Below, piece after piece: positions 9,924 to 44,023 of a DNA stretch of 64,000 bases. The DNA is from Escherichia phage SmurfNell. Location of the stretch: the sequence record OR896824.1; one strand, 5' to 3'. The notes beneath the pieces are model-generated. The model was not told where the DNA came from. It searched no databases and saw only the letters and a list, made by a program, of their open reading frames with translations. The position numbers were made by a program, and so were the translations under genes. How positions within the stretch are numbered: the stretch's first letter is position 1; the number at the start of each line of letters is the position of its first letter.

Positions 9924-10382
9924 TTAAGCTGGATATAGCTCGGCTTTGAAAGCAGCTCTAACTTCTATTGCCTCTTCTAACGAATTGCATTGTTGGTACT
10001 TACGAGTATTTCCTTTTTGCATAAGTACACAGTATTTTTCACCGCGCATATAGATATTAGATTCTCCTAACTTATTGTCCTTTCTCACATCTATATTATG
10101 CATTTGATCAGATCTATTGGAATCTTCTAGATTCTCTATGAAATTACAATCCTTAATTCTGTTCTTGTGGTCTATCTCCTCAGGAATATATCCTTTATGA
10201 TACAGAAAGACTAACTGATGTTCTCCCCATTTCTTGCCTTTGAAACCAATCCTGATATACCCTTTGTGCTTCCCACCCGCAAACTGCCCTATTAACCTCT
10301 TTTGGTTAGTTTTCCTCCATTTGAGGTGGCCAGTTTCTGGATCATATTCAAAGGCTTCTCTAACCTCTTCTTGAGTTATCAT
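9924..10382 (-). CDS. HNH homing endonuclease
   Basis: N-terminal EYDPETGHLKWR motif shared with the other HNH ORFs in this window, plus YHKGYIPEEIDHKNRIKDCN HNH core. Confidence 0.7.
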   Translation of the reverse strand: MITQEEVREAFEYDPETGHLKWRKTNQKRLIGQFAGGKHKGYIRIGFKGKKWGEHQLVFLYHKGYIPEEIDHKNRIKDCNFIENLEDSNRSDQMHNIDVRKDNKLGESNIYMRGEKYCVLMQKGNTRKYQQCNSLEEAIEVRAAFKAELYPA

Positions 10383-10611
10383 CTTCTTTAATTAATTCTC
10401 CTAATTCCTTATAAACACGTTCTAACTCAAAAGGGATACGTAAGGATACTCGTACCTTACGTTGTTTTAATAGCCATATAGATACGTTCGGAATACCAGC
10501 CAATCTGGGAGGGACCACTCGGCATAGTTTCTCCGCAGTATCGTAAACAGAAGTTTTACGTTCTTTTACGTAAAACTTCCTTGTTTCCCACTTTTTATTC
10601 TTCGCTGTCAT
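10360..10611 (-). CDS. hypothetical basic protein (about 83 aa)
   Basis: Small ORF between the HNH gene and the 929-aa gene; start at 10611 chosen to minimise overlap, uncertain. Confidence 0.35.
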   Translation of the reverse strand: MTAKNKKWETRKFYVKERKTSVYDTAEKLCRVVPPRLAGIPNVSIWLLKQRKVRVSLRIPFELERVYKELGELIKEDDNSRRG

Positions 10612-13384
10612 TTCTAGCCCCCAATTCAGCAAGAGCTTCCTCATGCATCTGACGTTCTTCATCTGTCATAAACTTAACTGGAATCGGCATACATTCGATC
10701 TTACAGTAAGTTCTGTACCAGTCCACAATCTTTTCCGTATCCAGATCTTTACCGATACCCATCATGCCAAGATACATACGAGCATATTTTGGGTTAGCGC
10801 TCTGACCTGTCTTAAGGAAGAAATCCTTCTTCTTATTCTTAAGAGCTTCGATAAACGGTTTGATTGTTACGTTTGAACACTTTTTAATATCTTCCCAGAA
10901 CATGTCGTGCATCTTATGGAAGAATGCAGCTCTATCGTTTGGTTTATCCTTGATATACTGTTCAACGTGTTCCACTGTTACATCTTTAATAGAATCCAGA
11001 TGATAATAGCGAACCAGAAGCAATTTAGCTTCATAGGCATCTGCATGACGTGGTGCGCAATATTCAGGAGTTGAGTGCAAAATAGCTTTGATTCGCTCTT
11101 CTGTATACTCTTTGCCTGCACCTTCGATAGTTCCCCAGCTTTCACTGAAAATATCAATAGTTGCACCCTGATCAAGCAGATAATAACGCAAAGTACTAGT
11201 ATAGTTTCTGGACTCCAGTTCACGACGACGTGCATACAGCTGCTGAGCTAACTCAACCCAACCCTCATCAATATTATATTGCTCGGAACCCGCAGAAAAT
11301 CCACTCGTAGATTTATCAATAAAATAATAAATGTTCTGAGCACCACGGTCGCGCCTGATTGCTTGGAAACGCATGTTTGGCGCTTGGTTTGAGGTTCTAG
11401 TGATAACAAATACGTTATCAAAATAGTTAAAGTCAACGCCACTCGTTACAGATGGACTACATAACAAACAATCAATCTGTTGATCAATTAGCTCATTAGT
11501 AGTGTAATCCAGAATACGTCGGATATCTACATCAGACGTAGAGTTTGAGTGAATTTCTTTAACTAACGCACCAGTGTTACGACGTAACGCCATCCCCTTT
11601 TCATTCAGTTCATCTGGCCCACAGTCAGATACTAGGATTGATTTCTCCCCCATCTCTAGTGAAGTCTGGAGTGCGACCCAAATACTGGATTCATCAGGGA
11701 ACTCATATGCATGAGCTTTTGCCAGCATTTTACGGTGATGATTATAGAACGCGACCGGTTTATCAAAATCAATCAAAGAACCATAGGCTTCAATCGTTTC
11801 TGCACTGATATCACCATCAGATAAGATAACCGTTTTTGCAGTAATAAGAATATCGCGAAGAACCTGAATACATTCACGACGGTTTTTAACAACCGGGGCG
11901 AATAACAGATCATTCATTACTGCGTCACATTCATCAATAAAGATCGTATCAATCTGACCCACAAAGCTCTTGAACTTATGGATAGAGTGAATAGTTGAAG
12001 ACATACGATCAATAGCACCACGTTTGAAGTTCAGCATATCAACTGACTTATCATACTGACCAGCACCGAATTTCTTCGCGTTTGAAGATACAAGTGCCCT
12101 AGTATTCGTGATTGCAATAAAGTTTCCTGGAAGAACACCTGCATCTAGCCACTTAGTTACTGCTGTGGTTTTACCTGTACCAAGACTTGCCTTAACAAAT
12201 GTTAAATGTCCTTTTGGGGGTACAATGTTAATCTTCAAGTATGGAACTTCTGGCGGTGAATCTGTGTCCAGACGCTTTAGTGGTACACCTTTTAAGTTGG
12301 GTGGAATCTCACGTTTGGAGTTATTCACAAAGGCTTTTAGAGCCTGCTTACGACCGTTATTAAAGTAATCTTGAATATTACGACTATTATCTTTAGTTGC
12401 AATATATTCAGATAAAGCTGGTTTAATCTCACGTTCTAACCACGTAAAGTCAACACCATCTTCTAACGCTCTGTGATAAAGTTTTGGGATAATACGCAGG
12501 TACACCCCATCCTCAGCTTCTTCTAGTTCGCTGATGGTTTCTTCCACTTTATCAGATGCAGCCTTCTTGCCTTTAATTTGGTCAAGTAAGGAGTAGAATT
12601 CTTCTTTAAACTCACCTCTAGTTGTTTCAAAGTCAACTAGGTTATTGGGTAGATTCACTTTCGAACCCTTAACATACACAAGACGTGGTTTATTCTCCGC
12701 TTTAAACGGATCGACTATACCATCATCAAATAAGGGATCTGCGAAATAGTGAAGCTGAACAGAAGAATAATAAGCTAAGTCAGCAATATCAAAGCCATAC
12801 TTTTGCTTACTACTGTCATTGATGGATGTAAATAAGAATTTTAATTGCCCCTGCGTTACCTTGACATTAGATTCTAGCATTAAGTGCATTCGGATACCTG
12901 GTTTTAATCCAGCCGAAGACGATGCATGAGCAATAAACCCTGCATCAAGAGGAAACATATCCTCACTAATACTATTCAACATCTTAATAATATGACGTGC
13001 CATGCCAACAAGATTAAACTTGTCATAGCCACCAGTATCTACAATACCATCCACGTCCATAGCAATAATATGACTAGGATTGGATACGTTAAAGTTTCCC
13101 CTGGTACGACGCACATTATCTTTTGGAGCTAAACATTTACCACGAATAGCTACAATATGCGGGTCTTTGGTAAGACGACGCATGATAGGTAACATTTCAG
13201 CAAGGTTTTGCGGGTCAAGTTCTTCAAGTACATCAAATTTGAAGGGCATGGAAGCTGGTTTACCTTCTGGATGCTCTTTAGAGAATCGCTTTGCAAAGGT
13301 GTAATCTTCCACTTTGATCTCTTTCCAGATGCCAGTGGCTTTATCTCTGGAAAATCCTGCGTGACCTTGTAGGATTGAGAACAC
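10595..13384 (-). CDS. putative replication origin-binding / helicase-like protein (929 aa from GTG 13384)
   Basis: Walker A LGTGKTT and Walker B FIDECD in the central region; GTG start at 13384 has an AGGAG RBS 8 nt upstream, while the ORF-track ATG at 13507 adds an implausible Cys-rich N-terminus. Confidence 0.65.
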   Translation of the reverse strand: MFSILQGHAGFSRDKATGIWKEIKVEDYTFAKRFSKEHPEGKPASMPFKFDVLEELDPQNLAEMLPIMRRLTKDPHIVAIRGKCLAPKDNVRRTRGNFNVSNPSHIIAMDVDGIVDTGGYDKFNLVGMARHIIKMLNSISEDMFPLDAGFIAHASSSAGLKPGIRMHLMLESNVKVTQGQLKFLFTSINDSSKQKYGFDIADLAYYSSVQLHYFADPLFDDGIVDPFKAENKPRLVYVKGSKVNLPNNLVDFETTRGEFKEEFYSLLDQIKGKKAASDKVEETISELEEAEDGVYLRIIPKLYHRALEDGVDFTWLEREIKPALSEYIATKDNSRNIQDYFNNGRKQALKAFVNNSKREIPPNLKGVPLKRLDTDSPPEVPYLKINIVPPKGHLTFVKASLGTGKTTAVTKWLDAGVLPGNFIAITNTRALVSSNAKKFGAGQYDKSVDMLNFKRGAIDRMSSTIHSIHKFKSFVGQIDTIFIDECDAVMNDLLFAPVVKNRRECIQVLRDILITAKTVILSDGDISAETIEAYGSLIDFDKPVAFYNHHRKMLAKAHAYEFPDESSIWVALQTSLEMGEKSILVSDCGPDELNEKGMALRRNTGALVKEIHSNSTSDVDIRRILDYTTNELIDQQIDCLLCSPSVTSGVDFNYFDNVFVITRTSNQAPNMRFQAIRRDRGAQNIYYFIDKSTSGFSAGSEQYNIDEGWVELAQQLYARRRELESRNYTSTLRYYLLDQGATIDIFSESWGTIEGAGKEYTEERIKAILHSTPEYCAPRHADAYEAKLLLVRYYHLDSIKDVTVEHVEQYIKDKPNDRAAFFHKMHDMFWEDIKKCSNVTIKPFIEALKNKKKDFFLKTGQSANPKYARMYLGMMGIGKDLDTEKIVDWYRTYCKIECMPIPVKFMTDEERQMHEEALAELGARNDSEE

Positions 13385-13880
13385 AACAATACTCCTATGT
13401 TGGTTATTCGGATATCTTTCTTTAGGACTATTCAAAAGAATAGAACAACTATTACTACCATTTACACAAACATTAATCATCATCAAGCAGTATGAATAAG
13501 TTATCATACCTCAGTGCTGCGCTCTCTTAACTCTTATCCAGATCAGAACCTAGGTCATTGGCCGCTAAGCCGATTCTGATTGCCCTCACTATCCTATTGG
13601 TAGGTGGCTACTGGACGTGTCACCATTCGCTGCTCTTTTCGTTCGCACCCCCATATAAAGCTCTGCCTATATAACGAGCTAAATATGCACGGTTTGGATT
13701 TACCTTTCCGAATTCAGGGTACGCAGATCACTTAATTGATAATTAACTAATGCAGTATAAACACTAGTAATAGTTAAAACAACCCTTAATGGGGCAGCCT
13801 AACTGTTCCGTATTGCGGATTGTAAACAAGAAAAATTAGCAAAATCAATTTTTACTAATGTCTCTCAATTCAATATAAAT
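13385..13880 (-). other. long ORF-free leader / possible structured RNA upstream of the 929-aa helicase-like gene
   Basis: About 500 nt between minus-strand promoter 13881-13909 and the GTG start at 13384 with no ORF of 60 aa or more on either strand; locally GC-rich segment at 13540-13660. Confidence 0.3.
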
Positions 13881-19195: not shown

Positions 19196-19264
19196 TATAA
19201 TTTTTCTCTTAGACATTGTATTTTGATCTGTGCTAAGAAAATTGATCAGAATGTCAAAATTTTA

Positions 19265-19291
19265 TTGACACCACCATAACTTTTGTATAAG
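19265..19291 (+). promoter_or_regulatory. sigma70-like promoter upstream of the HNH gene at 19331
   Basis: TTGACA-15-TGTATAAG (extended -10). Confidence 0.45.
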
Positions 19292-19330
19292 ATATACACA
19301 TAACTTAAAAATTTTGACAAGGAAATAAAA

Positions 19331-19822
19331 ATGAATACTGAAATAACACAAGACCTACTAAGAACCTACTTTGACTATAAAGATGGAGAATTGTTTTACA
19401 AACCAACCTATAAAACCCCTGCGGGAAGAATATCCAAAAAAGCAGGTAAATCTGCCAGACTAACTCCGTGTAACGGGTACTATCGTATAAATGTACCAAG
19501 AATAGGTGTACAGAAAGAACATAGGATGATTTTCCTATATCATGAAGGATACCTACCAGAAGTAGTAGATCATATTGATAGGGATAAAGAAAATAATAGG
19601 ATAGAGAACCTTAGGGCATCTAATCTTCAGGATAACGCTATTAATCGCTCCATAAGTAAGAGTAATACCTCTGGTATTGTGGGTGTACATTATGATGAAT
19701 CATATGGTAAGTGGGTTGTAACGTATAGGGGTAAGTACTTTGGAAGATTCGATACTAAAGAAGAAGCTGCCGAAGTTAATGCTAATGTTCGTGCCCTTGA
19801 TCAAACCCGTATAAATAGTTGA
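19331..19822 (+). CDS. HNH homing endonuclease
   Basis: YLPEVVDHIDRDKENNRIENLR HNH core and N-terminal FDYKDGELFYKP motif; free-standing between nrdD and phoH. Confidence 0.7.
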   Translation: MNTEITQDLLRTYFDYKDGELFYKPTYKTPAGRISKKAGKSARLTPCNGYYRINVPRIGVQKEHRMIFLYHEGYLPEVVDHIDRDKENNRIENLRASNLQDNAINRSISKSNTSGIVGVHYDESYGKWVVTYRGKYFGRFDTKEEAAEVNANVRALDQTRINS

Positions 19823-19905
19823 GTATCTAGTACCACACATCTCCCAATAAAAGCAAGCAAATTTTTTATTTAAAAGCAATATCATAGGCTTATTTAAAAT
19901 TGTAG

Positions 19906-23457: not shown

Positions 23458-23465
23458 TAAAAACA

Positions 23466-23492
23466 AGGAGATCTTCGGGTCTCCTTTTTCTT
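23466..23492 (+). terminator. rho-independent terminator downstream of nrdA
   Basis: GGAGATC-TTCG-GGTCTCC hairpin followed by TTTTTCTTT. Confidence 0.7.
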
Positions 23493-23502: not shown

Positions 23503-23531
23503 CTTGCTAATCGCTACCAGATTTGCTATAA
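23503..23531 (+). promoter_or_regulatory. T5-type sigma70 promoter abutting the nrdA/nrdB intergenic HNH gene
   Basis: TTGCTA-17-TGCTATAAT; the HNH ATG lies 8 nt after the -10. Confidence 0.55.
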
Positions 23532-23538
23532 TATCTAT

Positions 23539-24036
23539 ATGAAATTAACACAGAGTAGATTAAAAGAGCTAATCTCCTATGACCCTGAAACTGGCGAATT
23601 TACCTGGCTCCCAAGAAAAACTTTAGCAAAGCATTTATGGAACGCTAAAGCAGGAACCTATGATAAATTAGGGTATCTTCGTATAAAAGTTGAAGGAGTT
23701 CAATATTTAGCTCATCGCCTAGCCTTCTTGTATATGACTGGAGAAATACCAGAAGGAAAAATTGACCATAAAGATACTAATCCGTCTAATTGCGCCTGGG
23801 ATAATCTCCGTGAAGCCACGAGTTCTCAAAATTCTATGAACTCGTGTGCAAGATCGGATAACCAGCTTGGAATGAAAAATATTCGTGTAAAAGGCACTTC
23901 ATTTCAGGTTAGGATAGGCAAAGACGGCAAATCTTATACAAAAACTTTTAAAACCCTAGAAGAAGCTATAGAATGGAGAGACACCAAACTACTAGAACTT
24001 CATGGGGACTTTGCAAACAACGGAGAAGCTAAATGA
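23539..24036 (+). CDS. HNH homing endonuclease (inserted between nrdA and nrdB)
   Basis: N-terminal ELISYDPETGEFTWL motif and EGKIDHKDTNPSNCAWDNLR HNH core. Confidence 0.7.
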   Translation: MKLTQSRLKELISYDPETGEFTWLPRKTLAKHLWNAKAGTYDKLGYLRIKVEGVQYLAHRLAFLYMTGEIPEGKIDHKDTNPSNCAWDNLREATSSQNSMNSCARSDNQLGMKNIRVKGTSFQVRIGKDGKSYTKTFKTLEEAIEWRDTKLLELHGDFANNGEAK

Positions 24037-25178
24037 CTACTTTACTTAACTTAGAATGGGAACATACTAACGCTGATCTTTTCCTCGGTGATTCTTTGGG
24101 TATCGCAGATTATGTGCGTGTGGCACACCCCGAACTAGAGCGATTAGCTCTGTTGCAGCGTTCCCAGTTCTGGACTGAAACTGAAATTAGTCTTGAAGCT
24201 GATAAAAAGCAGTGGGGTAATCTCCCGCGTGATATTCAGGAAATTACTCTCCTGAACTTAGCATGGCAAACCCAAACAGATTCTTTCATTAGTCGTGCTC
24301 CTGAAGCAGCTATTATGCCACTTGTAAGCCGTCCTGAACTGGAAGGTATGCTCAAGCAGTGGAGCTACTTCGAAGATCTGCACAGCCGTGCGTATAGTAA
24401 TATTATTCGTAACGTTCTGACTGATCCAGCAGAATTTATTGATTCTGTAACTAAAAACCAAGAAGCATTTGCACGTATCGCAGATTCTGTTGAACTGTTT
24501 GATGAATTGTATCTGTTAGGTCAGTATTTCCTTGCAGTACGTGATCATCGTGGTGATAATACTTATCCAGAAACTGAGTTCCCTGAAGTTAAACGTGAAA
24601 CTCAGGCTAAGCTGTTAGATGCTTACTTTGCAATCTACGGTCTGGAAGCAATGCAGTTCTACGCATCCTTTGCATGTACCTTTGCTCTAGCAGAGAACGA
24701 TATTCTGCAAGGTATTGCCAAGAACCTGCAACTAATTGCTAAAGATGAAGCTCTGCACACTCAAATGTCTAAAGCTATCATCCAGATTATGTTTCAGCAA
24801 TTTGATAAAGATCTGGTAGATGAAGCATTAGCTAAAGCACCAGCACAACTCCTAAAAACTCTGAAAACTGAGATTGAATGGGGTCACTTTATCTTTAAAG
24901 GCCGTAGTCTGATTGGTTTGAACGCAGAACTGCTTGAAGAATATCTTTACTTTGTAGGACGTAACGCATTTATGCACATTGGTGTAGAATGGCCAAGCCA
25001 CTTACCTGTAATTACTAAGAACCCTATTCCGTGGATTATGAACTGGTTGGATACTACATCTTTACAACCTGCTCCGCAAGAGATTCAGATTGGTGCAGCA
25101 TATCGTGTAGGTCAGGTAACTGAAACCTCTGCTGATACTCTGAAAGATCTTGGCAACGAATTTGAGGGTATGTTCTAA
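24033..25178 (+). CDS. nrdB: ribonucleoside-diphosphate reductase beta subunit
   Basis: Di-iron ligand motifs (YFEDLHSRAYS; EALHTQ) typical of R2 proteins. Confidence 0.8.
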   Translation: MTTLLNLEWEHTNADLFLGDSLGIADYVRVAHPELERLALLQRSQFWTETEISLEADKKQWGNLPRDIQEITLLNLAWQTQTDSFISRAPEAAIMPLVSRPELEGMLKQWSYFEDLHSRAYSNIIRNVLTDPAEFIDSVTKNQEAFARIADSVELFDELYLLGQYFLAVRDHRGDNTYPETEFPEVKRETQAKLLDAYFAIYGLEAMQFYASFACTFALAENDILQGIAKNLQLIAKDEALHTQMSKAIIQIMFQQFDKDLVDEALAKAPAQLLKTLKTEIEWGHFIFKGRSLIGLNAELLEEYLYFVGRNAFMHIGVEWPSHLPVITKNPIPWIMNWLDTTSLQPAPQEIQIGAAYRVGQVTETSADTLKDLGNEFEGMF

Positions 25179-26657: not shown

Positions 26658-27236
26658 ATGACAGCCATAGTAGCATTTAAATATAAAGATAAAGTATACT
26701 TAGCTGGTGATCGTATGGGTTCTAATGGCTATACGAAACTGCTGGTTAAAAATCCGAAAGTATTCAAAATCTCTGATGATTTGTACTTCGGATACACTAG
26801 TTCCTTCTACATGGGACAATTACTAGAGCATAGCTTTACTGTACCACCACGTTTAGCAGATATTTCCGATGATAAATATTTATATACGGAAATAGTACCT
26901 AAATTACGTGATATGTTTAACCAGAAAGACTTTGGCGAAAAGAAAAATGAAAAATATGCTGAACCTAATCTGGGACAATTTATTATGCTCTACAAAGGAA
27001 GAATCTTTATTTTCCAATCTAATGCTTCTATTCTAGAAGTTGAATATGCCGGTGTAGGCTGTGGAGGAGAAGATGTACTTTCCAGTATTCGTACAGGTTT
27101 AGCTATTGCGGATTGTCGAGCCACAGATTTAGATGTAGATGATATATTTGAAATCATTGATCTGGCTTTTACGCATTGTGCAGATTATATGTGTGGTGTA
27201 TCTTCCCAACATGATGTTTTAGTAATTGGAGAATAA
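26658..27236 (+). CDS. HslV/proteasome-beta-like Ntn-hydrolase protein
   Basis: N-terminus MTAIVAFKYKDKVYLAGDRMGSNG aligns by eye with HslV ([23 protein letters not shown]), including Thr1 after Met removal. Confidence 0.5.
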   Translation: MTAIVAFKYKDKVYLAGDRMGSNGYTKLLVKNPKVFKISDDLYFGYTSSFYMGQLLEHSFTVPPRLADISDDKYLYTEIVPKLRDMFNQKDFGEKKNEKYAEPNLGQFIMLYKGRIFIFQSNASILEVEYAGVGCGGEDVLSSIRTGLAIADCRATDLDVDDIFEIIDLAFTHCADYMCGVSSQHDVLVIGE

Positions 27237-32598: not shown

Positions 32599-33041
32599 TG
32601 GAAGAAAATATTCTAAATGTTTTGCGTAGGGCTTTGCAGGAATCTAAGATTGATGGCTCTGATAAAGAGGTAGCTAAAAGCTACCAGACCATAATCGAAG
32701 ATCTTCAGCGTGTTGATAAAGACTTCATTACTTCTGAACAGTTTGTGTCTTATCTCAAAGCTCAGCTGAAAAGCATTAATCAGACGAAAGCTAAACTTCA
32801 TGGTCAAGACCTTGATAATTATAGCTTGCAGTCTGCTCAGTATGAATATATACTGAACAAATGGCTACAACAGTATCTGCCGCCTCAGCTTTCTGATTCT
32901 GAGATTCGCAAATACTTTGCAGAATTAGTTAAGTTGAACCCTGGGATTACGAAGAGTATGCTGATGAAAGCGATTAAGGAAGAATTCCCTGGTCGTTATG
33001 ACGGTGGCATCGCTGCTCAGGTTGCTGGCGAATTTAACTAA
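32598..33041 (+). CDS. hypothetical protein (147 aa)
   Basis: ORF overlapping the preceding stop (ATAATGG). Confidence 0.55.
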   Translation: MEENILNVLRRALQESKIDGSDKEVAKSYQTIIEDLQRVDKDFITSEQFVSYLKAQLKSINQTKAKLHGQDLDNYSLQSAQYEYILNKWLQQYLPPQLSDSEIRKYFAELVKLNPGITKSMLMKAIKEEFPGRYDGGIAAQVAGEFN

Positions 33042-33049
33042 AAATTGAT

Positions 33050-33078
33050 TTGCTAAACGCTTCAAAATTCTGTATAAT
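33050..33078 (+). promoter_or_regulatory. T5-type sigma70 promoter driving the ORF-free 33.1-33.9 kb region and tRNA-Arg
   Basis: TTGCTA-17-TGTATAATAG plus ATTCATAAATTAGAGAACAG leader; no ORF for about 950 nt downstream. Confidence 0.65.
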
Positions 33079-33084
33079 AGATTC

Positions 33085-33937
33085 ATAAATTAGAGAACAG
33101 CGAGCCGATTACGCTGAGTGAGTTTAGTGATTCCTACTAGGATAGCTACTCCACTGAATAGAGTCGGTGAGTTGGAGACTAGTAAGTACTCTGAGAGAGG
33201 CTACGAGCTAACGCTTATTGCTATTGATAGGGAACTGAAAATCTGCGGAAAACTCGGGAGCTGTCCCGAAATCTCGTAAACTCTTCTCTAGTTTATGTTA
33301 GTGGGGTGTCGAACTGACTTATGTGATAACACTGCCGTCCTAGTATAAACGGTAATATCAAACCGTAACTGGTGGAAGATGCAGGTTCGAATCCTGCGGT
33401 CGGAAAGAATCAGATAACTCGGGCTTATACCGGATAAGCATTCGCTGCTGTAGTACATACTATGACGGTTCAGGAGGTACGCCTCCTGATCAGTATTAGG
33501 TTAGAATCGAAACAGCTAAACCACGAGGAAACCTGACGGCCTCAACCAAACTCGGAACTCGGGATCACTGCCTAGTGTGTACCCCGTTTAACCTGAGACT
33601 AGGCATCCAGCTTCGCATCGAAAATCGGAGGTGCGATTCTAACAGACCGCGTGAATATGAGAGTGGGAAACGCTGACATGAGAGATGTCACTAATGGTGC
33701 CCAATAGTACAGGTAATTCGCGATAATTCCTGTTGAGCGGCAGCAGTAGGCTGGGAGTCATGACCTAAGCCTAACCGAGTTCTTCACATACGGAGAACAT
33801 AACCACAAAGTCACCCTGACTTAAACTGGAAGATATTGTCTGACGGAAGGGCTGCAGAGCTTAATCTGAGGGGGCTGACCCTACCTACCGTCGGGTATCT
33901 TTAAGAGCTTTTATAAGAGTTCTTAAAAATACCTAAA
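33085..33937 (+). other. ORF-free transcribed region (putative ncRNA / tRNA precursor leader) containing a degenerate tRNA-like element
   Basis: About 850 nt downstream of promoter 33050-33078 with no ORF of 60 aa or more on either strand; ends at tRNA-Arg(TCT); contains several hairpins (e.g. CAGGAGG-TACG-CCTCCTG at 33487-33504). Confidence 0.35.
33346..33417 (+). other. degenerate tRNA-like element (canonical T-arm, 8-nt putative anticodon loop, imperfect acceptor stem)
   Basis: GCAGG-TTCGAAT-CCTGC T-arm and ACGGT/ACCGT hairpin with 8-nt loop; acceptor pairing has a U-U mismatch and no CCA. Confidence 0.25.
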
Positions 33938-34012
33938 CGGGGTGTAGTCTAAGGGATAGGCAGGAGTCTTCTAAATTCCTTTATGCAGGTTCGAATCCTG
34001 TCACCTCGGCCA
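33938..34012 (+). tRNA. tRNA-Arg (anticodon TCT)
   Basis: Hand-folded cloverleaf: acceptor CGGGGTG/CACCTCG, anticodon loop CTTCTAA, T-loop TTCGAAT, encoded CCA. Confidence 0.7.
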
Positions 34013-39732: not shown

Positions 39733-39749
39733 ATTTGAAGGAGATGCTG

Positions 39750-40043: not shown

Positions 40044-40072
40044 TATTACATAAATTGAACTGGAGAAGCAAC

Positions 40073-40297: not shown

Positions 40298-40485
40298 AAA
40301 TGTTAGTTAAATTTAAGTGTTGTGGTTCTGAACATATTTTCACTCGTTATAGAGAGTTTAAGATGTGTGAGTGTGGTAAGTCAGGCTATGATGCTGGAGA
40401 TGGCTATTATGCTAGATCTATAGGACATTCTAAAGATCTAGAGTTTACTAATCTCGAAAAGCAAGATAAATCGACCGTTGGCTGA
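40294..40485 (+). CDS. small Cys-rich protein (63 aa)
   Basis: CCGSEH...CECGKSG zinc-ribbon-like; overlaps previous stop; 3' end overlaps tRNA-Cys by 14 nt. Confidence 0.45.
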   Translation: MKMLVKFKCCGSEHIFTRYREFKMCECGKSGYDAGDGYYARSIGHSKDLEFTNLEKQDKSTVG

Positions 40486-40547
40486 ATGGCTTAGGCGGAG
40501 GCCTGCAAAACCTCCTTATGTGAGTTCGAATCTCATGCGGTCGTCCA
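40472..40547 (+). tRNA. tRNA-Cys (anticodon GCA)
   Basis: Acceptor CGACCGT/GCGGTCG, anticodon loop CTGCAAA, U73 discriminator as in bacterial tRNA-Cys, CCA. Confidence 0.65.
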
Positions 40548-40554
40548 AATTTTA

Positions 40555-40637
40555 GGGTCGTTAGCCAAGCGGTTTGGCGGTGGACTGTTAATCCATGTCG
40601 AAAGACAACGTAGGTTCGAATCCTACACGGCCCGCCA
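40555..40637 (+). tRNA. tRNA with GTT anticodon (Asn-type) carrying a 13-nt variable arm
   Basis: Acceptor GGGTCGT/ACGGCCC, D-arm GCCA-AGCGGTT-TGGC, anticodon stem-loop GTGGA-CTGTTAA-TCCAT, variable arm GTCGAAAGACAAC, T-arm GTAGG-TTCGAAT-CCTAC, CCA. Confidence 0.6.
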
Positions 40638-40739
40638 TATTCTGTGTAGAGTTAAGTAAACCGGTAGCCAACCAGCTATCATTACTGATATTGAATTCAG
40701 TCACAGATACCATTTTCATTAATAACTGAGGAAATAGAT

Positions 40740-40925
40740 ATGACAACTCGTGCAATTGCTCGACTAGAAGCTGATCGTGATAGTCTGATTAATAATATTA
40801 AGGTTTGGGATCAAGAAATTGAAAACCAAAAACTGACATTAATTCAAGATATGCAGCAACAGAATGCCCGTCGTGAAGCTCTAAAAGAGGTTGAGGAAGC
40901 TATCGAAAAACTCAAAACTGAGTAA
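40740..40925 (+). CDS. hypothetical coiled-coil protein (61 aa)
   Basis: ORF with GAGGAAA RBS between tRNA genes. Confidence 0.45.
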   Translation: MTTRAIARLEADRDSLINNIKVWDQEIENQKLTLIQDMQQQNARREALKEVEEAIEKLKTE

Positions 40926-40933
40926 ATAAATTA

Positions 40934-41010
40934 TGCGATCGGGGCTGGCTTGGTAATGGTACTCCCCTGTCACGGGAGAAAATGTGGGTTCGAATCCCAT
41001 CGGTCGCGCC
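40934..41010 (+). tRNA. tRNA-Asp (anticodon GTC)
   Basis: Acceptor GCGATCG/CGGTCGC, anticodon stem-loop CTCCC-CTGTCAC-GGGAG, T-loop TTCGAAT, G73, CCA. Confidence 0.7.
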
Positions 41011-41087
41011 AATTTTTGCAGGACGCTGGTATAGATAACCACCGCGTGGGAAGTGTCTATATTTAGAGCACTGCAAAACATAATAAT

Positions 41088-41163
41088 ACATCCATAGCTC
41101 AATGGTTAGAGCTACCGCCTCTTAAGCGGAGGGTTCTAGGTTCAAGTCCTAGTGGGTGTACCA
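41088..41163 (+). tRNA. tRNA-Lys (anticodon CTT)
   Basis: Acceptor ACATCCA/TGGGTGT, D-arm GCTC-AATGGTTA-GAGC, anticodon loop CTCTTAA, T-arm CTAGG-TTCAAGT-CCTAG, CCA. Confidence 0.65.
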
Positions 41164-41169
41164 AACATC

Positions 41170-41370
41170 AGAGTAGCGTGATGTACTGCAAAGACCCAAA
41201 GTCCGGGGTGGACTTCTTGATTCAAAGGAGCAGGCATTAATTATCATTCTAGCGTGGTGGAGAGGGGACACCAGCTTGCCGAGGGTAGAAGCTCGTTCGA
41301 TTCGAGTGAAAGAATGGTTCTCGTAAATCCGCACAAGTGATAGCAGGTTCAAGTCCTGCCTAGATTGACT
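41170..41370 (+). other. unresolved tRNA-like / structured RNA region between tRNA-Lys(CTT) and tRNA-Gly(GCC)
   Basis: Contains two T-arm-like hairpins (CTCG-TTCGATT-CGAG; GCAGG-TTCAAGT-CCTGC) and a TGGTG...CACCA hairpin, but no cloverleaf could be folded by hand. Confidence 0.3.
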
Positions 41371-41376
41371 TATTAT

Positions 41377-41450
41377 GCGTTCGTAGTTAAAAGGTATAAT
41401 TTTTGGTTGCCAACCAGAAGTTGAGGGTTCGATTCCCTCCGACCGCACCA
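41377..41450 (+). tRNA. tRNA-Gly (anticodon GCC)
   Basis: Acceptor GCGTTCG/CGACCGC (one U-C mismatch), anticodon stem-loop TTTGG-TTGCCAA-CCAGA, T-arm GAGGG-TTCGATT-CCCTC, CCA. Confidence 0.65.
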
Positions 41451-41698
41451 AATTTAGGTTTCTGCTTCCTAGAGAACTGACGCCTAGATAAACAAGGCGA
41501 TGAGTTTCCGGCCGGTTCTAGTCGCTGAAAATCCTCCCGACCAGGTAGGTGTAAGTAAACGAAAGTTTACTTATTAAGTAAGTCCGACACATCGGCGGGT
41601 GTGTTCTAGTACTTAAAGAAGGTCTCGCAAACTTTCTCGCTAGCATGAGTTGATAGCTCGGTGACTTACCTAATAAGTAAATTTATTAAAAAATGTAG

Positions 41699-41727
41699 TT
41701 GCTATTTAGCTTAATTCTCTGTATAAT
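41699..41727 (+). promoter_or_regulatory. T5-type sigma70 promoter upstream of the tRNA-Pro block
   Basis: TTGCTA-17-TGTATAATAT. Confidence 0.65.
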
Positions 41728-41759
41728 ATATTTTATAAAGTGAGTTAACAAAGAATATT

Positions 41760-41837
41760 CTCCGTGTAGCTCAGTTTGGCCAGAGCGTTTCGTTTGGGGC
41801 GATAGGGTCGGGGGTTCAAATCCTCCCACGGAGACCA
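41760..41837 (+). tRNA. tRNA-Pro (anticodon TGG)
   Basis: Acceptor CTCCGTG/CACGGAG, D-arm GCTC...GAGC, anticodon loop TTTGGGG, T-loop TTCAAAT, CCA; begins about 33 nt downstream of promoter -10. Confidence 0.6.
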
Positions 41838-41843
41838 AACAAT

Positions 41844-41921
41844 TGCGGGTTAGATCTCTGGTAGAGATCGCTAGTCTCATAAGCTAGAAAGAGGTAGGTT
41901 CGATTCCTGCACCCGCTTCCA
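41844..41921 (+). tRNA. tRNA with CAT anticodon (Met or Ile2), U1-U72 mismatch
   Basis: Palindromic D-stem GATC/GATC, anticodon stem-loop CTAGT-CTCATAA-GCTAG, T-loop TTCGATT, CCA; terminal acceptor pair unpaired. Confidence 0.55.
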
Positions 41922-41942
41922 ATTTAATAGAAGGATTTCTAA

Positions 41943-42107
41943 ATGAAATTGTTTCGTTTAAAAGTAAGTGATATACGTTCTAGTAAAGATCGTAAGAAGT
42001 ATCCACTAGCTCACTACGGTAAAGATGAAAACGAAGTGATGGCGGAATTTGGTATTAATCATCCTTACTTGAAAATATACTCTATCAAAGAAGTATACAT
42101 GTATTAA
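41943..42107 (+). CDS. hypothetical small protein (54 aa)
   Basis: Short ORF between two tRNAs, below track cutoff. Confidence 0.3.
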   Translation: MKLFRLKVSDIRSSKDRKKYPLAHYGKDENEVMAEFGINHPYLKIYSIKEVYMY

Positions 42108-42109
42108 AT

Positions 42110-42188
42110 AGATCGCTAGCTCAATTGGTTTAGCAGCACCCGGCTTTTAACCGGAAGGTTCTGGGTTCGAGTCCCAGGCGGTCTACCA
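42110..42188 (+). tRNA. tRNA-Lys (anticodon TTT)
   Basis: Acceptor AGATCGC/GCGGTCT, anticodon hairpin CCGG-CTTTTAA-CCGG, T-arm CTGGG-TTCGAGT-CCCAG, CCA. Confidence 0.65.
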
Positions 42189-42205
42189 ATTTAAAGGAAT
42201 TTGTT

Positions 42206-42523
42206 ATGAATATTAACAAAGTTCTAGAAACAATATCAGAAATGTCTGGTAGAGCTGGAAAACGCTTTACTGAACTATGTATTAAAAATCAAAAAATACC
42301 AGAACATCAATGTCATTATTGTCGAGACTGTGAACAATACCATGAAATGTGTGTGGTTGAAGATTGGATCTGGGATCAGATAAGAAAAGAACAATCCAAA
42401 GATATTGTTCTATGTTTTACTTGTATGGAACGACGTTTAGGACGTAAAATTACTCTTAAAGATCTTAAACATGTTCCCTGTAACGCTCCTTACTTCATTG
42501 GTTTTAGAATGGAGAGATTTTGA
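42206..42523 (+). CDS. Cys-rich putative zinc-binding protein (105 aa)
   Basis: CHYCRDCEQYHEMC...CFTCMERR; AAGGAA RBS. Confidence 0.5.
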   Translation: MNINKVLETISEMSGRAGKRFTELCIKNQKIPEHQCHYCRDCEQYHEMCVVEDWIWDQIRKEQSKDIVLCFTCMERRLGRKITLKDLKHVPCNAPYFIGFRMERF

Positions 42524-42666
42524 TGATAATCTGGTTTTACTTAATGAAACAAAAAGTCAAGCAGTACAACGTATTTTCTGCTGATTTTACTATTGGAATG
42601 TTCTTAGCAGGATTATGTGAGTTTCTGTTTGAAGCATTCTTAATCGGAAGTCTTTTGCTCGGTTAG
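42523..42666 (+). CDS. small hydrophobic protein (47 aa)
   Basis: ATGA overlap with upstream gene; predicted single TM; 3' end overlaps tRNA-Val. Confidence 0.3.
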   Translation: MIIWFYLMKQKVKQYNVFSADFTIGMFLAGLCEFLFEAFLIGSLLLG

Positions 42667-42730
42667 TTTAATGGGAGAACCCCGTCTTTACACGGCGGTT
42701 GCGATAGTTCGATTCTATCACCGAGTACCA
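42657..42730 (+). tRNA. tRNA-Val (anticodon TAC)
   Basis: Acceptor GCTCGGT/ACCGAGT, D-stem GTTT/GAAC, anticodon stem-loop CCGTC-TTTACAC-GGCGG, T-arm GATAG-TTCGATT-CTATC, CCA. Confidence 0.7.
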
Positions 42731-42749
42731 ATTAACTCAAAATAAGGAA

Positions 42750-43109
42750 TTGCAAATGCAATTATCAAGCAAGGTTCAAGGCTACTTCGGTCATGTAACA
42801 ATGGAGTTCGCTATCTCTAAAGGTTGGGACTTCGAACAAGATTTAGCTGAGTTCTACAAAGATATTGATCTGAACGTACCGTACATGGGACTCTCTACTG
42901 GTCAGGAAATCACAGAAGCCGATGTATTCAAGGCAAGTCAAGGTGAGATAACACCTAGTTTTGCCGAGTTCTGGTTAGGAATTACTCTGAAAGATGATGC
43001 ACCGGATGGTGGTGTGGTTATGCAGAGTATGCACTCTGGAAGCTCTGATTACCTTTTCGTTAGCGACGTTAAGGAAATACAAGAAATCTGCAAAAATGTA
43101 CTTGCTTGA
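42750..43109 (+). CDS. hypothetical protein (119 aa)
   Basis: ORF with AAGGAA RBS after tRNA-Val. Confidence 0.55.
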   Translation: MQMQLSSKVQGYFGHVTMEFAISKGWDFEQDLAEFYKDIDLNVPYMGLSTGQEITEADVFKASQGEITPSFAEFWLGITLKDDAPDGGVVMQSMHSGSSDYLFVSDVKEIQEICKNVLA

Positions 43110-43131
43110 TACTTAATTTCTTGTTATAATA
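43103..43131 (+). promoter_or_regulatory. T5-type sigma70 promoter upstream of an ORF-free region and the tRNA-Ala pair
   Basis: TTGCTT-17-TGTTATAATAT plus TTATATAAATTGATGAGGAG leader. Confidence 0.65.
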
Positions 43132-43392
43132 TTTATATAAATTGATGAGGAGAAATCCTCATCAAAGTTCACTAAGGTATTAGCTCGACCTAGGACTGGC
43201 TGCCAAAAAGCACGGTTGCAATTAGACCCCTAATGGCGGGGGATACTTTGCAAGAAGTTCTAGATTAGTCCACTAGATTCAGCGGCAACTGAATAGTGTA
43301 TCGGGTTTGTGAAGAGCGGTTATCCTCTACTGGCTAATGTCTGAGGGTAATACGCACGCCGAGCTAATAGCCTTAGTAAACTTAAAGATTTT

Positions 43393-43466
43393 GGGGATAT
43401 AGTTTAATGGTAGAACATCTGCTTTGCACGCAGAAGACGAGGGTTCAACTCCCCCTTTCTCCACCA
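43393..43466 (+). tRNA. tRNA-Ala (anticodon TGC)
   Basis: Anticodon arm TCTGC-TTTGCAC-GCAGA as in E. coli tRNA-Ala; G3-U70 identity pair; CCA. Confidence 0.7.
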
Positions 43467-43472
43467 AAATTT

Positions 43473-43548
43473 GGGGTCATAGGTTATTTGGTTAAACTTA
43501 CTGCCTTGCAAGCAGTGGAACTCAGTTCAATTCTGAGTGACTCCACCA
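43473..43548 (+). tRNA. tRNA-Ala (anticodon TGC), second copy
   Basis: Acceptor GGGGTCA/TGACTCC with G3-U70, D-stem GGTT/AACT, anticodon stem-loop ACTGC-CTTGCAA-GCAGT, T-arm CTCAG-TTCAATT-CTGAG, CCA. Confidence 0.65.
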
Positions 43549-43561
43549 AATTAGAGGAAGC

Positions 43562-44023
43562 ATGGCTAGAACAGATATATTGGAAAGAAAGGATGAAATT
43601 CTTCTCTGGATAGAAGAAAATCAACCCAAAGCTGAAATTGCTAGAAGATTACGCTGCAAAGTTGATACACTGAATACTTATCTGAAAAAGATGGGAATAC
43701 AATATTCAGGTAACTCTGCTAGAAAAGGTTTTATACGTTCTGAGATACAGGATGGGTATATTCCGGCAGTGAATTACTTTTACAAAAATAGCCCAATATC
43801 TTCTAGTCAGCTTAGAATAAAGATACTACGTGATGGCTTAAAACCTCACAAATGTGAAAATTGTAATTTATCTGAATGGATGGGAGTTCCAATCCCCTTA
43901 GAGTTAGAGCATAAAGATGGTGATCATTATAATAATGAGTGGGATAATTTAGCTTTATTATGTCCCAACTGTCATACACTAACAGATACACATTCAGGTA
44001 AGAATAAAGGAACATACGCGTGA
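43562..44023 (+). CDS. HNH homing endonuclease (inside tRNA cluster)
   Basis: HNH core LELEHKDGDHYNNEWDNLALLCPNCH; flanked by tRNA genes on both sides. Confidence 0.7.
   Translation: MARTDILERKDEILLWIEENQPKAEIARRLRCKVDTLNTYLKKMGIQYSGNSARKGFIRSEIQDGYIPAVNYFYKNSPISSSQLRIKILRDGLKPHKCENCNLSEWMGVPIPLELEHKDGDHYNNEWDNLALLCPNCHTLTDTHSGKNKGTYA

What the first reader, a model, noticed from the sequence alone, without database searches (positions are those of the whole stretch)
9924..44023. Family of free-standing HNH endonuclease genes inserted at intergenic sites
Four HNH ORFs (9924-10382 minus; 19331-19822; 23539-24036; 43562-44023) sit between conserved genes, including between nrdA and nrdB and in the middle of the tRNA cluster. 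Three share an N-terminal YDPETG-type motif. They are likely mobile homing endonucleases; the nrdA/nrdB copy has a promoter abutting its start codon (possible leaderless mRNA) and overlaps the nrdB start.
Basis: partly seen in the sequence, partly recalled or inferred. Interest (0 to 1): 0.45.

Follow-up and report, generated by a model that had tools for sequence, protein, structure and literature searches.

The report
Mobile HNH endonuclease genes in T5-like phage
Four small nuclease genes in this T5-like phage genome are selfish "homing" genes, present in only a few percent of related phages and carrying short stretches of neighbouring genes with them; this is real but already well known for this phage group.

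Summary
The window is a T5-like phage (Demerecviridae, closest to Salmonella phage gmork). All four ORFs exist at the stated coordinates. Three (9924-10382-, 19331-19822+, 23539-24036+) are paralogous HNH_3 nucleases with an AP2-like DNA-binding domain. The fourth (43562-44023+) is an unrelated zinc-finger HNH with an N-terminal HTH.

Each gene occurs in only 10-28 of about 440-530 related phage records, always at the same site. No record has more than two of them. Precise empty alleles exist for all four sites.

The genes are more conserved than their flanks. Two carry a sharply bounded, synonymously recoded piece of the neighbouring gene: the first ~200 nt of nrdB, and the last ~125-160 nt of the gene upstream of ORF1. 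This is the expected signature of homing with co-conversion.

The nrdA-nrdB copy sits exactly after the -10 box of the resident nrdB promoter. Its ATG is 7 nt downstream with no Shine-Dalgarno, so leaderless geometry is confirmed. It overlaps the nrdB start as ATGA.

However, homing genes as the main variable element of T5-like phages, the nrdA-nrdB site, and this gene's AKFV33 orthologue are already published. Nuclease activity and the transcription start were not tested. Interest is low.

The parts
9924..10382 (-). ORF1 (H1), 152 aa, HNH_3-type free-standing homing endonuclease gene. Its start overlaps the 3' end of the upstream small gene (10360-10662) by 23 nt.
   Evidence: ORF list. Pfam HNH_3 E = 1.4e-10. 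Present in 10 phage records only. The site is empty (90-nt gap) in 24 of 29 sampled relatives. pN 0.078 / pS 0.80 against its 87%-identical variant. Gln replaces the metal-ligand Asn.
10383..10522 (-). Recoded 3' part of the conserved small gene (10360-10662) that travels with ORF1. Putative immunised target or co-conversion tract.
   Evidence: Alignment to the closest empty alleles: about 99% identity upstream of ~10522, then a dense run of mostly synonymous differences. pS is 0.037 for the first 141 nt against 0.889 for the last 123 nt, with the protein largely conserved.
19238..19825 (+). ORF2 cassette. It has its own promoter-like site TTGACA-N17-TAAGAT (19265-19293), an SD (AAGGA) and ORF2 (19331-19822, 163 aa, HNH_3 plus a weak AP2 match). 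It replaces a segment of empty alleles that holds a resident promoter-like site.
   Evidence: Junctions against empty alleles. The site is empty in 17 of 21 sampled relatives. The gene is found in 11 phage records. No co-conversion into nrdD or phoH.
23465..23486 (+). Intrinsic terminator of nrdA, shared by empty and occupied alleles.
   Evidence: Terminator scan. Identical in empty alleles.
23504..23532 (+). Resident nrdB promoter (TTGCTA-N17-TATAAT with an extended -10 TG), captured by ORF3. The insertion junction lies 2 nt after the -10 box.
   Evidence: Promoter scan. Same promoter in empty alleles, followed there by the native nrdB 5' UTR. A promoter is annotated at the equivalent position in T5 NC_005859.
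23539..24036 (+). ORF3 (H3), 165 aa, HNH nuclease plus a C-terminal AP2-like DNA-binding domain. The ATG lies 7 nt after the -10 box with no SD (leaderless geometry). The 3' end supplies a GGAG for nrdB and overlaps its ATG (ATGA).
24033..24233 (+). First ~200 nt of nrdB, linked to ORF3. Co-conversion tract or putative immunised target.
   Evidence: 97-100% identical to other ORF3-bearing phages but at most 82-88% to any empty allele. Beyond ~200 nt the pattern reverses. pS 0.022 against AKFV33 versus 0.64-0.68 against empty alleles. The tract clusters by endonuclease type across 29 genomes.
43473..43548 (+). tRNA-Ala(tgc), left border of the ORF4 insertion.
   Evidence: ARAGORN and Rfam. In empty alleles it is 5-9 nt from tRNA-Leu.
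43562..44023 (+). ORF4 (H4), 153 aa, HTH plus zinc-finger HNH endonuclease with its own SD (GAGGA, 43554-43558). It is inserted in the short spacer between two tRNA genes. Its last sense codon and stop codon (GCG TGA) are the first 6 nt of tRNA-Leu.
   Evidence: Found in 14 phage records. 57% identical to T5p073 HNH endonuclease. dN/dS 0.09 against the phage S124 copy.
44018..44094 (+). tRNA-Leu(tag), 77-nt allele linked to ORF4. The window's closest relatives without ORF4 carry a different 81-nt allele and an extra ~180-270 nt before tRNA-Ser.

Best explanation
The four ORFs are free-standing homing endonuclease genes of a T5-like phage.

Proposed mechanism (inferred, not shown). During mixed infection, each enzyme binds and cuts or nicks the allele of a co-infecting relative that lacks it, at or near its own insertion site. 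The break is repaired by recombination from the gene-bearing genome. This copies in the gene together with adjacent donor sequence, which also makes the converted allele resistant to further cutting.

Domain make-up. ORF1-3 pair an I-HmuI-like HNH nuclease domain with a C-terminal AP2-like DNA-binding domain. ORF4 pairs an N-terminal HTH with a zinc-finger HNH.

Shown here: sporadic, site-specific, independently assorting distribution; precise empty sites; genes more conserved than flanks; purifying selection; sharply bounded recoded tracts in nrdB and in the small gene next to ORF1.

Expression, inferred from sequence:
- ORF3 has replaced the native nrdB 5' UTR. It is predicted to be transcribed from the resident nrdB promoter as a leaderless mRNA, with nrdB translated behind it from a GGAG inside the ORF3 3' end and an ATGA overlap.
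- ORF2 brings its own promoter and SD.
- ORF1 overlaps the end of the upstream gene.
- ORF4 has its own SD. Its stop codon would be removed when RNase P matures tRNA-Leu, which probably limits its expression, as proposed for T4 SegB.
For: Nuclease identity:
- Pfam HNH_3 E = 1e-10 to 1e-16.
- Catalytic D-H...N-L...N columns invariant in a 12-sequence alignment.
- ORF4 is 57% identical to T5p073, annotated LuxR HTH plus HNH.

Mobility:
- 10, 11, 28 and 14 records carry the genes, against 444-531 records carrying the flanks.
- Occupancy in about 28 genomes: site 1 empty in 24 of 29, site 2 empty in 17 of 21, site 3 empty in 15 of 28, site 4 empty in 12 of 16.
- ORF3 is 100% identical to the Sds2, PYC03 and PECP14 copies, while the 6.5-kb region is about 95% identical.
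- ORF2 is 98.8% identical to the phiLLS copy, against 88-92% for its flanks.

Co-conversion:
- nrdB nt 1-201 has pS 0.022 against AKFV33 (ORF3-bearing) but 0.64-0.68 against empty alleles. The rest of nrdB shows the reverse: 0.446 against 0.16-0.20.
- The first 200 nt of nrdB cluster by endonuclease type, about 94-95% within type and 75-79% between, while the rest of nrdB shows no clustering by type in the class-by-class matrix.
- The small gene next to ORF1 has pS 0.037, then 0.889, across a sharp boundary.

Selection: ORF4 dN/dS 0.09; ORF1 pN 0.078 / pS 0.80.

Hotspots:
- The nrdA-nrdB site holds at least five HNH_3 lineages at two sub-sites.
- The nrdD|phoH site holds a T5orf172 endonuclease gene in AKFV33.

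Leaderless geometry.

Literature:
- PMC3326045 describes the ORF3 orthologue in AKFV33 and compares it to T4 mobE.
- PMC10644984 states that homing endonuclease genes are the main difference among T5-like genomes.
- PMC2330249 describes stop-codon removal by tRNA processing for SegB and proposes the same for T5 F-Tfl enzymes.
- PMC10448857 reports that cognate homing genes of different lineages occupy the same locations in related phages.
Against: - No cleavage, nicking or homing was measured, and the target sites are only inferred from the recoded tracts.
- ORF1 and its 87% variant carry Gln where I-HmuI has the metal-ligand Asn96 and where all ten other aligned homologues have Asn. Its catalytic competence is therefore uncertain.
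- ORF2 shows no co-conversion tract in the flanking genes.
- ORF4's Pfam HNH score is only just above threshold.
- Foldseek against the PDB gave no significant match for the ORF3 model.
- T5-like genomes are highly mosaic anyway, so some of the identity patterns could arise from ordinary recombination.
- The transcription start of ORF3 is predicted from promoter spacing only.
Confidence: 0.85

Rival explanations
1. The ORFs are decaying or inactive relics of former homing endonuclease genes. They now spread, or are lost, only by the ordinary homologous recombination that makes T5-like genomes mosaic, with no nuclease-driven drive.
For: The genomes are strongly mosaic in every pairwise profile. 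ORF1 has Gln at the metal-ligand Asn position. ORF2 shows no flanking co-conversion tract. ORF4 is about 75 aa shorter than its T5 homologue T5p073.
Against: All four ORFs are intact. Catalytic D-H and N residues are conserved in ORF2, ORF3 and ORF4. There is strong purifying selection: dN/dS 0.09 for ORF4, and pN/pS about 0.1 for ORF1. The genes are near-identical across backgrounds that differ by 5-10%. The sharply bounded linked tracts are more diverged (pS 0.64-0.89) than any background divergence in the sample.
Confidence: 0.1
2. The HNH proteins serve the phage itself, for example by making the T5-type genome nicks, degrading host DNA, aiding packaging, or regulating neighbouring genes through their DNA-binding domains. 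On this view they are not selfish mobile genes.
For: I-HmuI-type HNH enzymes are nickases (established knowledge), and T5-like genomes carry specific nicks (PMC10644984). ORF3 is wired into nrdB expression through a shared promoter and an ATGA overlap. AP2 and HTH domains are also used by transcription factors.
Against: Each gene is absent from more than 90% of close relatives, which share the same biology. Empty alleles keep a complete native promoter, UTR and nrdB arrangement. Other phages carry unrelated endonuclease lineages, or a T5orf172 gene, at the same sites.
Confidence: 0.04
3. The genes mainly act as weapons of interference competition (marker exclusion). They cut co-infecting relatives to bias inheritance of a larger linked region, and are kept because they benefit the carrier genome. 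Homing of the gene itself is secondary.
For: The linked tracts include parts of essential or conserved genes: nrdB, tRNA-Leu, and the small gene next to ORF1. Different lineages, each with a private nrdB 5' allele, compete for one site. SegB and SegG precedents exist in T4 (PMC2330249; the reference list of PMC10448857).
Against: This cannot be distinguished from plain homing with sequence data. The co-converted tracts are short (about 125-200 nt), so little beyond the gene itself is favoured.
Confidence: 0.2

Closest known systems
AKFV33 ORF96 / SPC35 'P-TflVIII-like' HNH endonuclease (T5-like phages)
   Same: Orthologue of ORF3: 98.4-98.8% nucleotide identity, same nrdA-nrdB site, and the same promoter-to-ATG junction. 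It was described in 2012 as a homing endonuclease between nrdA and nrdB (PMC3326045).
   Different: Nothing substantive. The published description did not report the leaderless geometry or the linked 200-nt nrdB tract.
T5 hegH (T5.095, putative H-N-H endonuclease P-TflVIII)
   Same: It has the same insertion point right after the -10 box of the nrdB promoter (promoter annotated in NC_005859). It is also in the HNH_3 family, abuts the nrdB start, and has its own linked nrdB 5' allele.
   Different: It is only about 42% identical in protein to ORF3. It keeps a leader with an AAGGAG SD and a TTG start, whereas ORF3 has no leader and no SD.
T4 MobE (free-standing HNH endonuclease between nrdA and nrdB of T-even phages)
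   Same: It occupies the same genomic niche, between the two ribonucleotide reductase subunit genes, and is the same kind of element (PMC3326045, citing Friedrich et al. 2007).
   Different: It belongs to an unrelated phage family. Sequence relatedness to ORF3 was not tested here. MobE's expression signals differ.
I-HmuI (Bacillus phage SPO1, PDB 1U3E)
   Different: I-HmuI is encoded in an intron and uses a different C-terminal DNA-binding region. ORF1-3 are free-standing and carry an AP2-like domain. ORF1 has Gln at the Asn96 position.
T5 tRNA-region HNH endonucleases (F-TflI, F-TflII, F-TflIV; T5p073)
   Same: ORF4 is 57% identical to T5p073 and has the same HTH plus zinc-finger HNH make-up. 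It also lies in the tRNA gene cluster. Site-specific activity of the F-Tfl enzymes was reported by Akulenko et al. 2004 (cited in PMC3326045 and PMC10644984).
   Different: ORF4 sits at a different spacer (tRNA-Ala|tRNA-Leu, against next to tRNA-Ile in T5) and is about 75 aa shorter. Which F-Tfl enzyme T5p073 corresponds to was not established here.
T4 SegB (GIY-YIG homing endonuclease in the T4 tRNA cluster)
   Same: It is a free-standing endonuclease gene whose 3' end runs into a tRNA gene, so that tRNA maturation cuts off the stop codon. This was proposed to keep expression low (PMC2330249). ORF4's GCG TGA forms nt 1-6 of tRNA-Leu.
   Different: It belongs to a different nuclease superfamily and a different phage.

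Membership tests
HNH_3 / I-HmuI-like His-Me finger nucleases (ORF1-3) | Significant match to the family profile | tested here: met
   PF13392 at 41, 49.7 and 60.4 bits against a 24.8 cut-off. ORF3 matches I-HmuI 1U3E at E = 9e-4.
HNH_3 / I-HmuI-like His-Me finger nucleases (ORF1-3) | Catalytic Asp-His and the structural or metal-binding Asn residues are present | tested here: inconclusive
   D-H, N-L and the last Asn are invariant in 12 sequences. ORF2 and ORF3 have all of them. ORF1 and its 87% variant have Gln at the position of I-HmuI Asn96.
HNH_3 / I-HmuI-like His-Me finger nucleases (ORF1-3) | Beta-beta-alpha-metal fold | tested here: met
HNH-AP2 endonucleases (HNH nuclease fused to an AP2/ERF-type DNA-binding domain) | C-terminal three-stranded sheet plus helix AP2-like domain | tested here: met
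Classical HNH (PF01844) with zinc finger (ORF4) | Profile match and a CxxC...H...N...CxxCH motif | tested here: met
   21.7 bits against a 21.4 cut-off, which is marginal. The motif KCENC...LEHKDGDHYNNEWDNLALLCPNCH is read directly from the translation. 57% identity to T5p073 HNH endonuclease.
Free-standing homing endonuclease gene | Not inside an intron or intein; occupies an intergenic position | tested here: met
   All four lie between genes. Junctions were mapped against empty alleles.
Free-standing homing endonuclease gene | Presence/absence polymorphism at one fixed site among close relatives | tested here: met
   10, 11, 28 and 14 records carry the genes, against 444-531 with the flanks. 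The neighbouring features are the same in every hit.
Free-standing homing endonuclease gene | Evidence of horizontal spread (gene more similar than its flanks, distribution incongruent with relatedness) | tested here: met
   ORF3 is 100% identical where flanks are about 95%. ORF2 is 98.8% where flanks are 88-92%. The four genes assort independently. For ORF4 the best match is only 96%, so this is weaker for that gene.
Free-standing homing endonuclease gene | Linked flanking tract (co-conversion or resistant target variant) | tested here: met
   Met for ORF3 (nrdB nt 1-200) and ORF1 (last ~125-160 nt of the upstream gene). Suggestive for ORF4, from the tRNA-Leu allele swap. Not seen for ORF2.
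Free-standing homing endonuclease gene | Site-specific cleavage or nicking of the gene-less allele, and resistance of the gene-bearing allele | not testable with these tools
   Needs protein expression and in vitro cleavage mapping.
Free-standing homing endonuclease gene | Super-Mendelian inheritance in mixed infection | not testable with these tools
   Needs phage crosses.
Leaderless mRNA (ORF3) | Promoter positioned so that transcription starts at or within a few nt of the start codon, with no Shine-Dalgarno | tested here: met
   The -10 box ends at 23532 and the ATG is at 23539. The intervening ATCTAT has no SD. The arrangement is identical in four ORF3-bearing genomes.
Leaderless mRNA (ORF3) | Mapped 5' end of the transcript at the AUG, and translation from it | not testable with these tools
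   Needs 5'-RACE or dRNA-seq, and reporter or toeprint assays.

The most novel reading that the evidence does not exclude
At the nrdA-nrdB site, at least five HNH-AP2 lineages, each locked to a private recoded ~200-nt nrdB 5' allele, may behave as mutually incompatible 'alleles' that exclude each other during co-infection. The ORF3 lineage would have gone further. By deleting its own leader and the native nrdB 5' UTR, it became a leaderless first cistron on which nrdB translation now depends. Precise loss of the selfish gene would then cripple an important gene, which amounts to an addiction-like stabilisation.
Probability: 0.25. Interest if true: 0.45.

Novelty: already known. Interest (0 to 1): 0.2.

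Why it matters
The result mainly helps annotation and interpretation of mosaicism in T5-like phages, many of which are therapy or biocontrol candidates. It shows which differences between isolates are selfish-gene traffic rather than adaptive change, and it marks short tracts of nrdB and tRNA genes that are dragged along.

Three details are useful, testable refinements: promoter capture with a predicted leaderless start, a 200-nt co-conversion tract whose sharp end gives a candidate target region, and a Gln variant at the metal-ligand position that is kept under purifying selection. None changes the established picture of free-standing homing endonucleases in phages.

Tried and rejected
- The flank-BLAST approach located both borders of the tRNA site in only 4 loci, because the tRNA flanks are short and allelic. 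It was replaced by ARAGORN gene-order maps.
- In the class matrix, the values for class 'B2' are unreliable. An indel shifted the ungapped comparison, so they were ignored.
- Other homing endonuclease genes in the window were sought by phmmer with the four proteins against all 249 ORFs of at least 50 aa, and by Pfam scans of 17 ORFs, mostly at positions that vary against phage gmork. None was found, but not every ORF in the window was scanned.
- A co-conversion tract around ORF2 was sought and not found.
- The idea that presence/absence reflects simple deletions was rejected. The empty alleles contain sequence that the occupied alleles lack: the native nrdB 5' UTR, a promoter at the nrdD|phoH site, and the native 3' end of the small gene.
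- One large protein search returned only 9 homologues of ORF1. That was enough for the motif check but too shallow for phylogeny.

Full report
**Identity of the window.** The sequence is a T5-like phage of the Demerecviridae, subfamily Markadamsvirinae. A 6.5-kb stretch around the nrd genes matches 531 phage records, mostly Salmonella and Escherichia phages. Positions 1-23540 are 98.6% identical and collinear with Salmonella phage gmork, an Epseptimavirus. No record in the collection carries more than two of the four genes discussed here, so this exact mosaic is not in that collection.

**The observation.** The four ORFs are in the mechanical ORF list at exactly the stated coordinates (translations).
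- ORF1 (9924-10382, minus), ORF2 (19331-19822) and ORF3 (23539-24036) match Pfam HNH_3 at E = 1.4e-10, 2.7e-13 and 1.2e-16.
- These three are mutual paralogues: phmmer E = 1e-10 to 1e-24, 31-39% identity.
- ORF4 (43562-44023) has no detectable similarity to them. It is a different kind of HNH protein. It has a marginal PF01844 match (21.7 against 21.4 bits) and weak N-terminal HTH matches. It has an intact CxxC...EH...N...CxxCH motif. It is 57% identical to T5p073, annotated as LuxR-HTH plus HNH endonuclease in the T5 tRNA region.
- The literal YDPETG occurs in ORF1 and ORF3 only. ORF2 has FDYKDGELF in the aligned position.
- A phmmer search with all four proteins against every ORF of at least 50 aa found no further paralogues. 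Pfam scans of 17 ORFs, mostly at positions that vary against gmork, found no other nuclease.

**What the proteins are.**
- In a 12-sequence alignment of ORF1-3, remote homologues and the T5 and gmork nrdA-nrdB genes, the D-H, N-L and final Asn columns are invariant.
- ORF3 matches the SPO1 homing endonuclease I-HmuI (1U3E) by sequence at E = 9e-4. I-HmuI Asp74-His75 and Asn96 align to ORF3 residues.
- ORF1-3 are therefore HNH nucleases fused to an AP2-like DNA-binding domain. From my own knowledge, this combination was described long ago for phage and cyanobacterial homing endonucleases (Magnani et al. 2004, not retrieved here).
- One oddity: ORF1 and its 87%-identical variant have Gln where I-HmuI has the metal ligand Asn96 and where all ten other aligned sequences have Asn.

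**Presence/absence.** Megablast with each ORF alone finds 10, 11, 28 and 14 records. The annotated features under nearly every hit are the same neighbours: nrdB for ORF3, and tRNA-Leu in about half of the ORF4 hits.
- A 163-nt empty nrdA-nrdB allele matches 444 records. Of these, 287 reach at least 80% coverage. That figure includes the 28 ORF3 carriers, whose two pieces the tool joins, so about 58% of records are truly empty.
- A 261-nt empty allele of the ORF1 site matches 488 records, 404 of them at 80% coverage or more.

I also fetched the four sites from 27-28 complete T5-like genomes in IMG/VR, plus gmork, and measured the distance between conserved flanks:

| Site | Empty | Occupied |
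|---|---|---|
| ORF1 site | 24 of 29 (90 nt) | 5 |
| ORF2 site | 17 of 21 | 2 with ORF2; 2 with a 979-nt insert encoding a T5orf172 plus treble-clef zinc-finger protein, another endonuclease class |
| nrdA-nrdB | 15 of 28 (163 nt) | 2 with ORF3; 11 with other HNH_3 genes only 35-44% identical to ORF3 |
| tRNA site | 12 of 16 (tRNA-Ala and tRNA-Leu 5-9 nt apart) | 3 with ORF4; 1 with a different insert |

The four genes assort independently. Gmork has ORF1 and ORF2, Ob_P has ORF1 and ORF4, and CitS1 has ORF3 and ORF4.

**Junctions: nrdA-nrdB.** The empty allele reads, in order: nrdA stop, terminator hairpin, TTGCTA-N17-TATAAT, a 5' UTR holding the SD AAGAGGA, then the nrdB ATG.
- In the window the sequence is identical up to two bases past the -10 box. 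It then reads CTAT-ATG, and ORF3 follows.
- The native UTR is gone. ORF3 ends ...GGAGAAGCTAAATGA, which supplies a GGAG 9 nt before the nrdB ATG and overlaps that ATG.
- The promoter scan reports this promoter at 23504-23532 with an extended -10 TG.
- The ATG at 23539 is the seventh base after the -10 box, which is the canonical start distance, and there is no SD. The junction is identical in Sds2, AKFV33 and an SE11-type genome.
- The gmork-type and T5-type genes share the same left junction (TATAATATCT) but keep a leader with AAGGAG and a GTG or TTG start. Two further lineages sit upstream of the promoter, directly after the nrdA stop.
- T5's reference annotation already names its copy hegH, 'putative H-N-H endonuclease P-TflVIII', with a promoter immediately upstream.

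**Junctions: ORF1.** ORF1 ends exactly where the upstream small gene (10360-10662) ends in empty alleles, and its start overlaps that gene by 23 nt.

**Junctions: ORF2.** ORF2 brings its own TTGACA-N17-TAAGAT site and AAGGA SD. It replaces a segment of the empty alleles that holds a promoter-like site, and T5's annotation also places promoters in this phoH-upstream interval.

**Junctions: ORF4.** ORF4 has a GAGGA SD 13 nt after tRNA-Ala. Its last sense codon and stop codon, GCG TGA, are the first six bases of tRNA-Leu. Both ARAGORN and Rfam start that tRNA at 44018.

**Linked tracts.**
- *nrdB and ORF3.* The first ~200 nt of the window's nrdB are 97-100% identical to other ORF3 carriers but at most 82-88% to any empty allele. 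Beyond ~200 nt the window is 98-100% identical to the best empty allele and about 90% to the ORF3 carriers.
  - In synonymous terms, nt 1-201 have pS 0.022 against AKFV33 but 0.64-0.68 against empty alleles. The rest of nrdB has 0.446 and 0.16-0.20 respectively.
  - Across all 29 genomes, the first 200 nt cluster by endonuclease type, about 94-95% within type against 75-79% between. In the class-by-class matrix the remainder shows no such structure.
  - No such linkage exists on the nrdA side.
- *ORF1.* The upstream small gene is nearly identical to the closest empty alleles for its first 141 nt (pS 0.037). It is saturated with mostly synonymous changes for its last 123 nt (pS 0.889), while the protein is largely unchanged.
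- *ORF4.* It is linked to a 77-nt tRNA-Leu allele, where the closest ORF4-less relatives have an 81-nt allele plus an extra ~180-270 nt before tRNA-Ser.
- *ORF2.* It has no such tract.

The genes themselves are under purifying selection: ORF4 has dN/dS 0.09 and ORF1 has pN 0.078 against pS 0.80. They are more similar between phages than the flanks are. ORF3 is 100% identical to the copies in Sds2, PYC03 and PECP14, where the region as a whole is about 95%. ORF2 is 98.8% identical to the phiLLS copy, against 88-92% for its flanks.

**Mechanism.** The best-supported reading is classical intronless homing. The enzyme cuts or nicks the gene-less allele of a co-infecting relative near the insertion site. 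Repair from the gene-bearing genome copies in the gene plus adjacent sequence, and the recoded tract protects the carrier.
- Shown: everything about distribution, junctions, linkage and selection.
- Inferred: nuclease activity, target position, the leaderless start, translational coupling to nrdB, and loss of the ORF4 stop codon on tRNA maturation. That last device was described for T4 SegB and proposed for the T5 F-Tfl enzymes (PMC2330249).

Rival readings are less likely. They are inactive relics moved by ordinary recombination, a domesticated function for the phage, and primarily a competition weapon. The last of these cannot be separated from homing by sequence alone.

**Comparison with what is known.** All of this fits published knowledge.
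- The ORF3 orthologue (AKFV33 ORF96) was described in 2012 as a homing endonuclease between nrdA and nrdB, 42% identical to the T5 gene. It was likened to T4 mobE, with the nrdA-nrdB region called a hotspot (PMC3326045).
- Site-specific HNH endonucleases F-TflI, II and IV of the T5 tRNA region were reported in 2004 (cited in PMC3326045 and PMC10644984).
- A 2023 comparison states that homing endonuclease genes account for most differences among T5-like genomes (PMC10644984).
- The general rule that cognate sites hold different endonuclease lineages next to essential genes is also published (PMC10448857).
- Public records already annotate many copies of all four genes as HNH or homing endonucleases.

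**Verdict.** The refinements added here are modest and testable:
- predicted leaderless promoter capture by ORF3;
- exact limits of the linked tracts in nrdB and next to ORF1;
- two sub-sites and at least five lineages at nrdA-nrdB;
- a T5orf172 gene as an alternative occupant of the ORF2 site;
- the Gln variant in ORF1.

Interest is 0.2.

Noticed in passing
window 26658-27236 (+): A 192-aa ORF matches Pfam Proteasome subunit (PF00227, E = 1.2e-9, nearly full length). It lies in a segment that differs from phage gmork but is 100% identical to phage Sds2, so it is a variable, HslV/proteasome-beta-like gene downstream of thymidylate synthase.
   Followed up: partly
window 33041-33938 (+): About 0.9 kb with no ORF of 60 aa or more on either strand lies directly upstream of tRNA-Arg(tct). 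Patches are 79-88% identical to the region annotated as non-coding 'RNAX' in T5 record AY734508. Rfam gives a borderline tRNA hit at 33334-33405 (29.3 against 29 bits) that ARAGORN does not call. Gmork instead has two ORFs and an odd tRNA here.
   Followed up: partly
window 10104-10106 (codon for Gln93 of ORF1): ORF1 and its 87%-identical variant carry Gln at the position of the I-HmuI metal-ligand Asn96, and all ten other aligned homologues have Asn. The substitution is old (pS 0.80 between the two variants) and is retained under purifying selection.
   Followed up: partly
window ~55209-55213; L124 9050-9577: Phage gmork has a further HNH-type 'homing endonuclease' (gmork_146) between a hypothetical gene and thioredoxin. 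The window has the precise empty site there. Gmork also has endonuclease-like ORFs (gmork_89, 101, 102, 108, 117) at positions that are empty in the window.
   Followed up: partly
L055 2185-2715 (phage T5, upstream of the small gene next to the ORF1 site): T5 carries yet another HNH protein with the same N-terminal motif (LRYDESTGDLIW), inserted between the replication-origin-binding protein gene and the small conserved gene. This is a separate insertion site only ~300 nt from the ORF1 site.
   Followed up: no
L003 and L025, nrdD|phoH intergenic region (979-nt insert): In AKFV33 and one other genome, the ORF2 site holds a minus-strand gene with two treble-clef zinc-finger repeats and a T5orf172 domain. 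The same intergenic site is thus used by two unrelated endonuclease classes.
   Followed up: yes
window 55608-55988 (+): A 126-aa ORF with a DUF7167 match (E = 1e-7) lies in a ~385-nt segment (55599-55984) that gmork lacks, between thioredoxin and the Ser/Thr phosphatase gene.
   Followed up: no
window 43393-43548 and 44018-44094: There are two tandem tRNA-Ala(tgc) genes, as in Epseptimavirus relatives. The adjacent tRNA-Leu(tag), however, is the 77-nt allele that is 100% identical to Tequintavirus genomes. This is an allele swap coincident with ORF4.
   Followed up: partly
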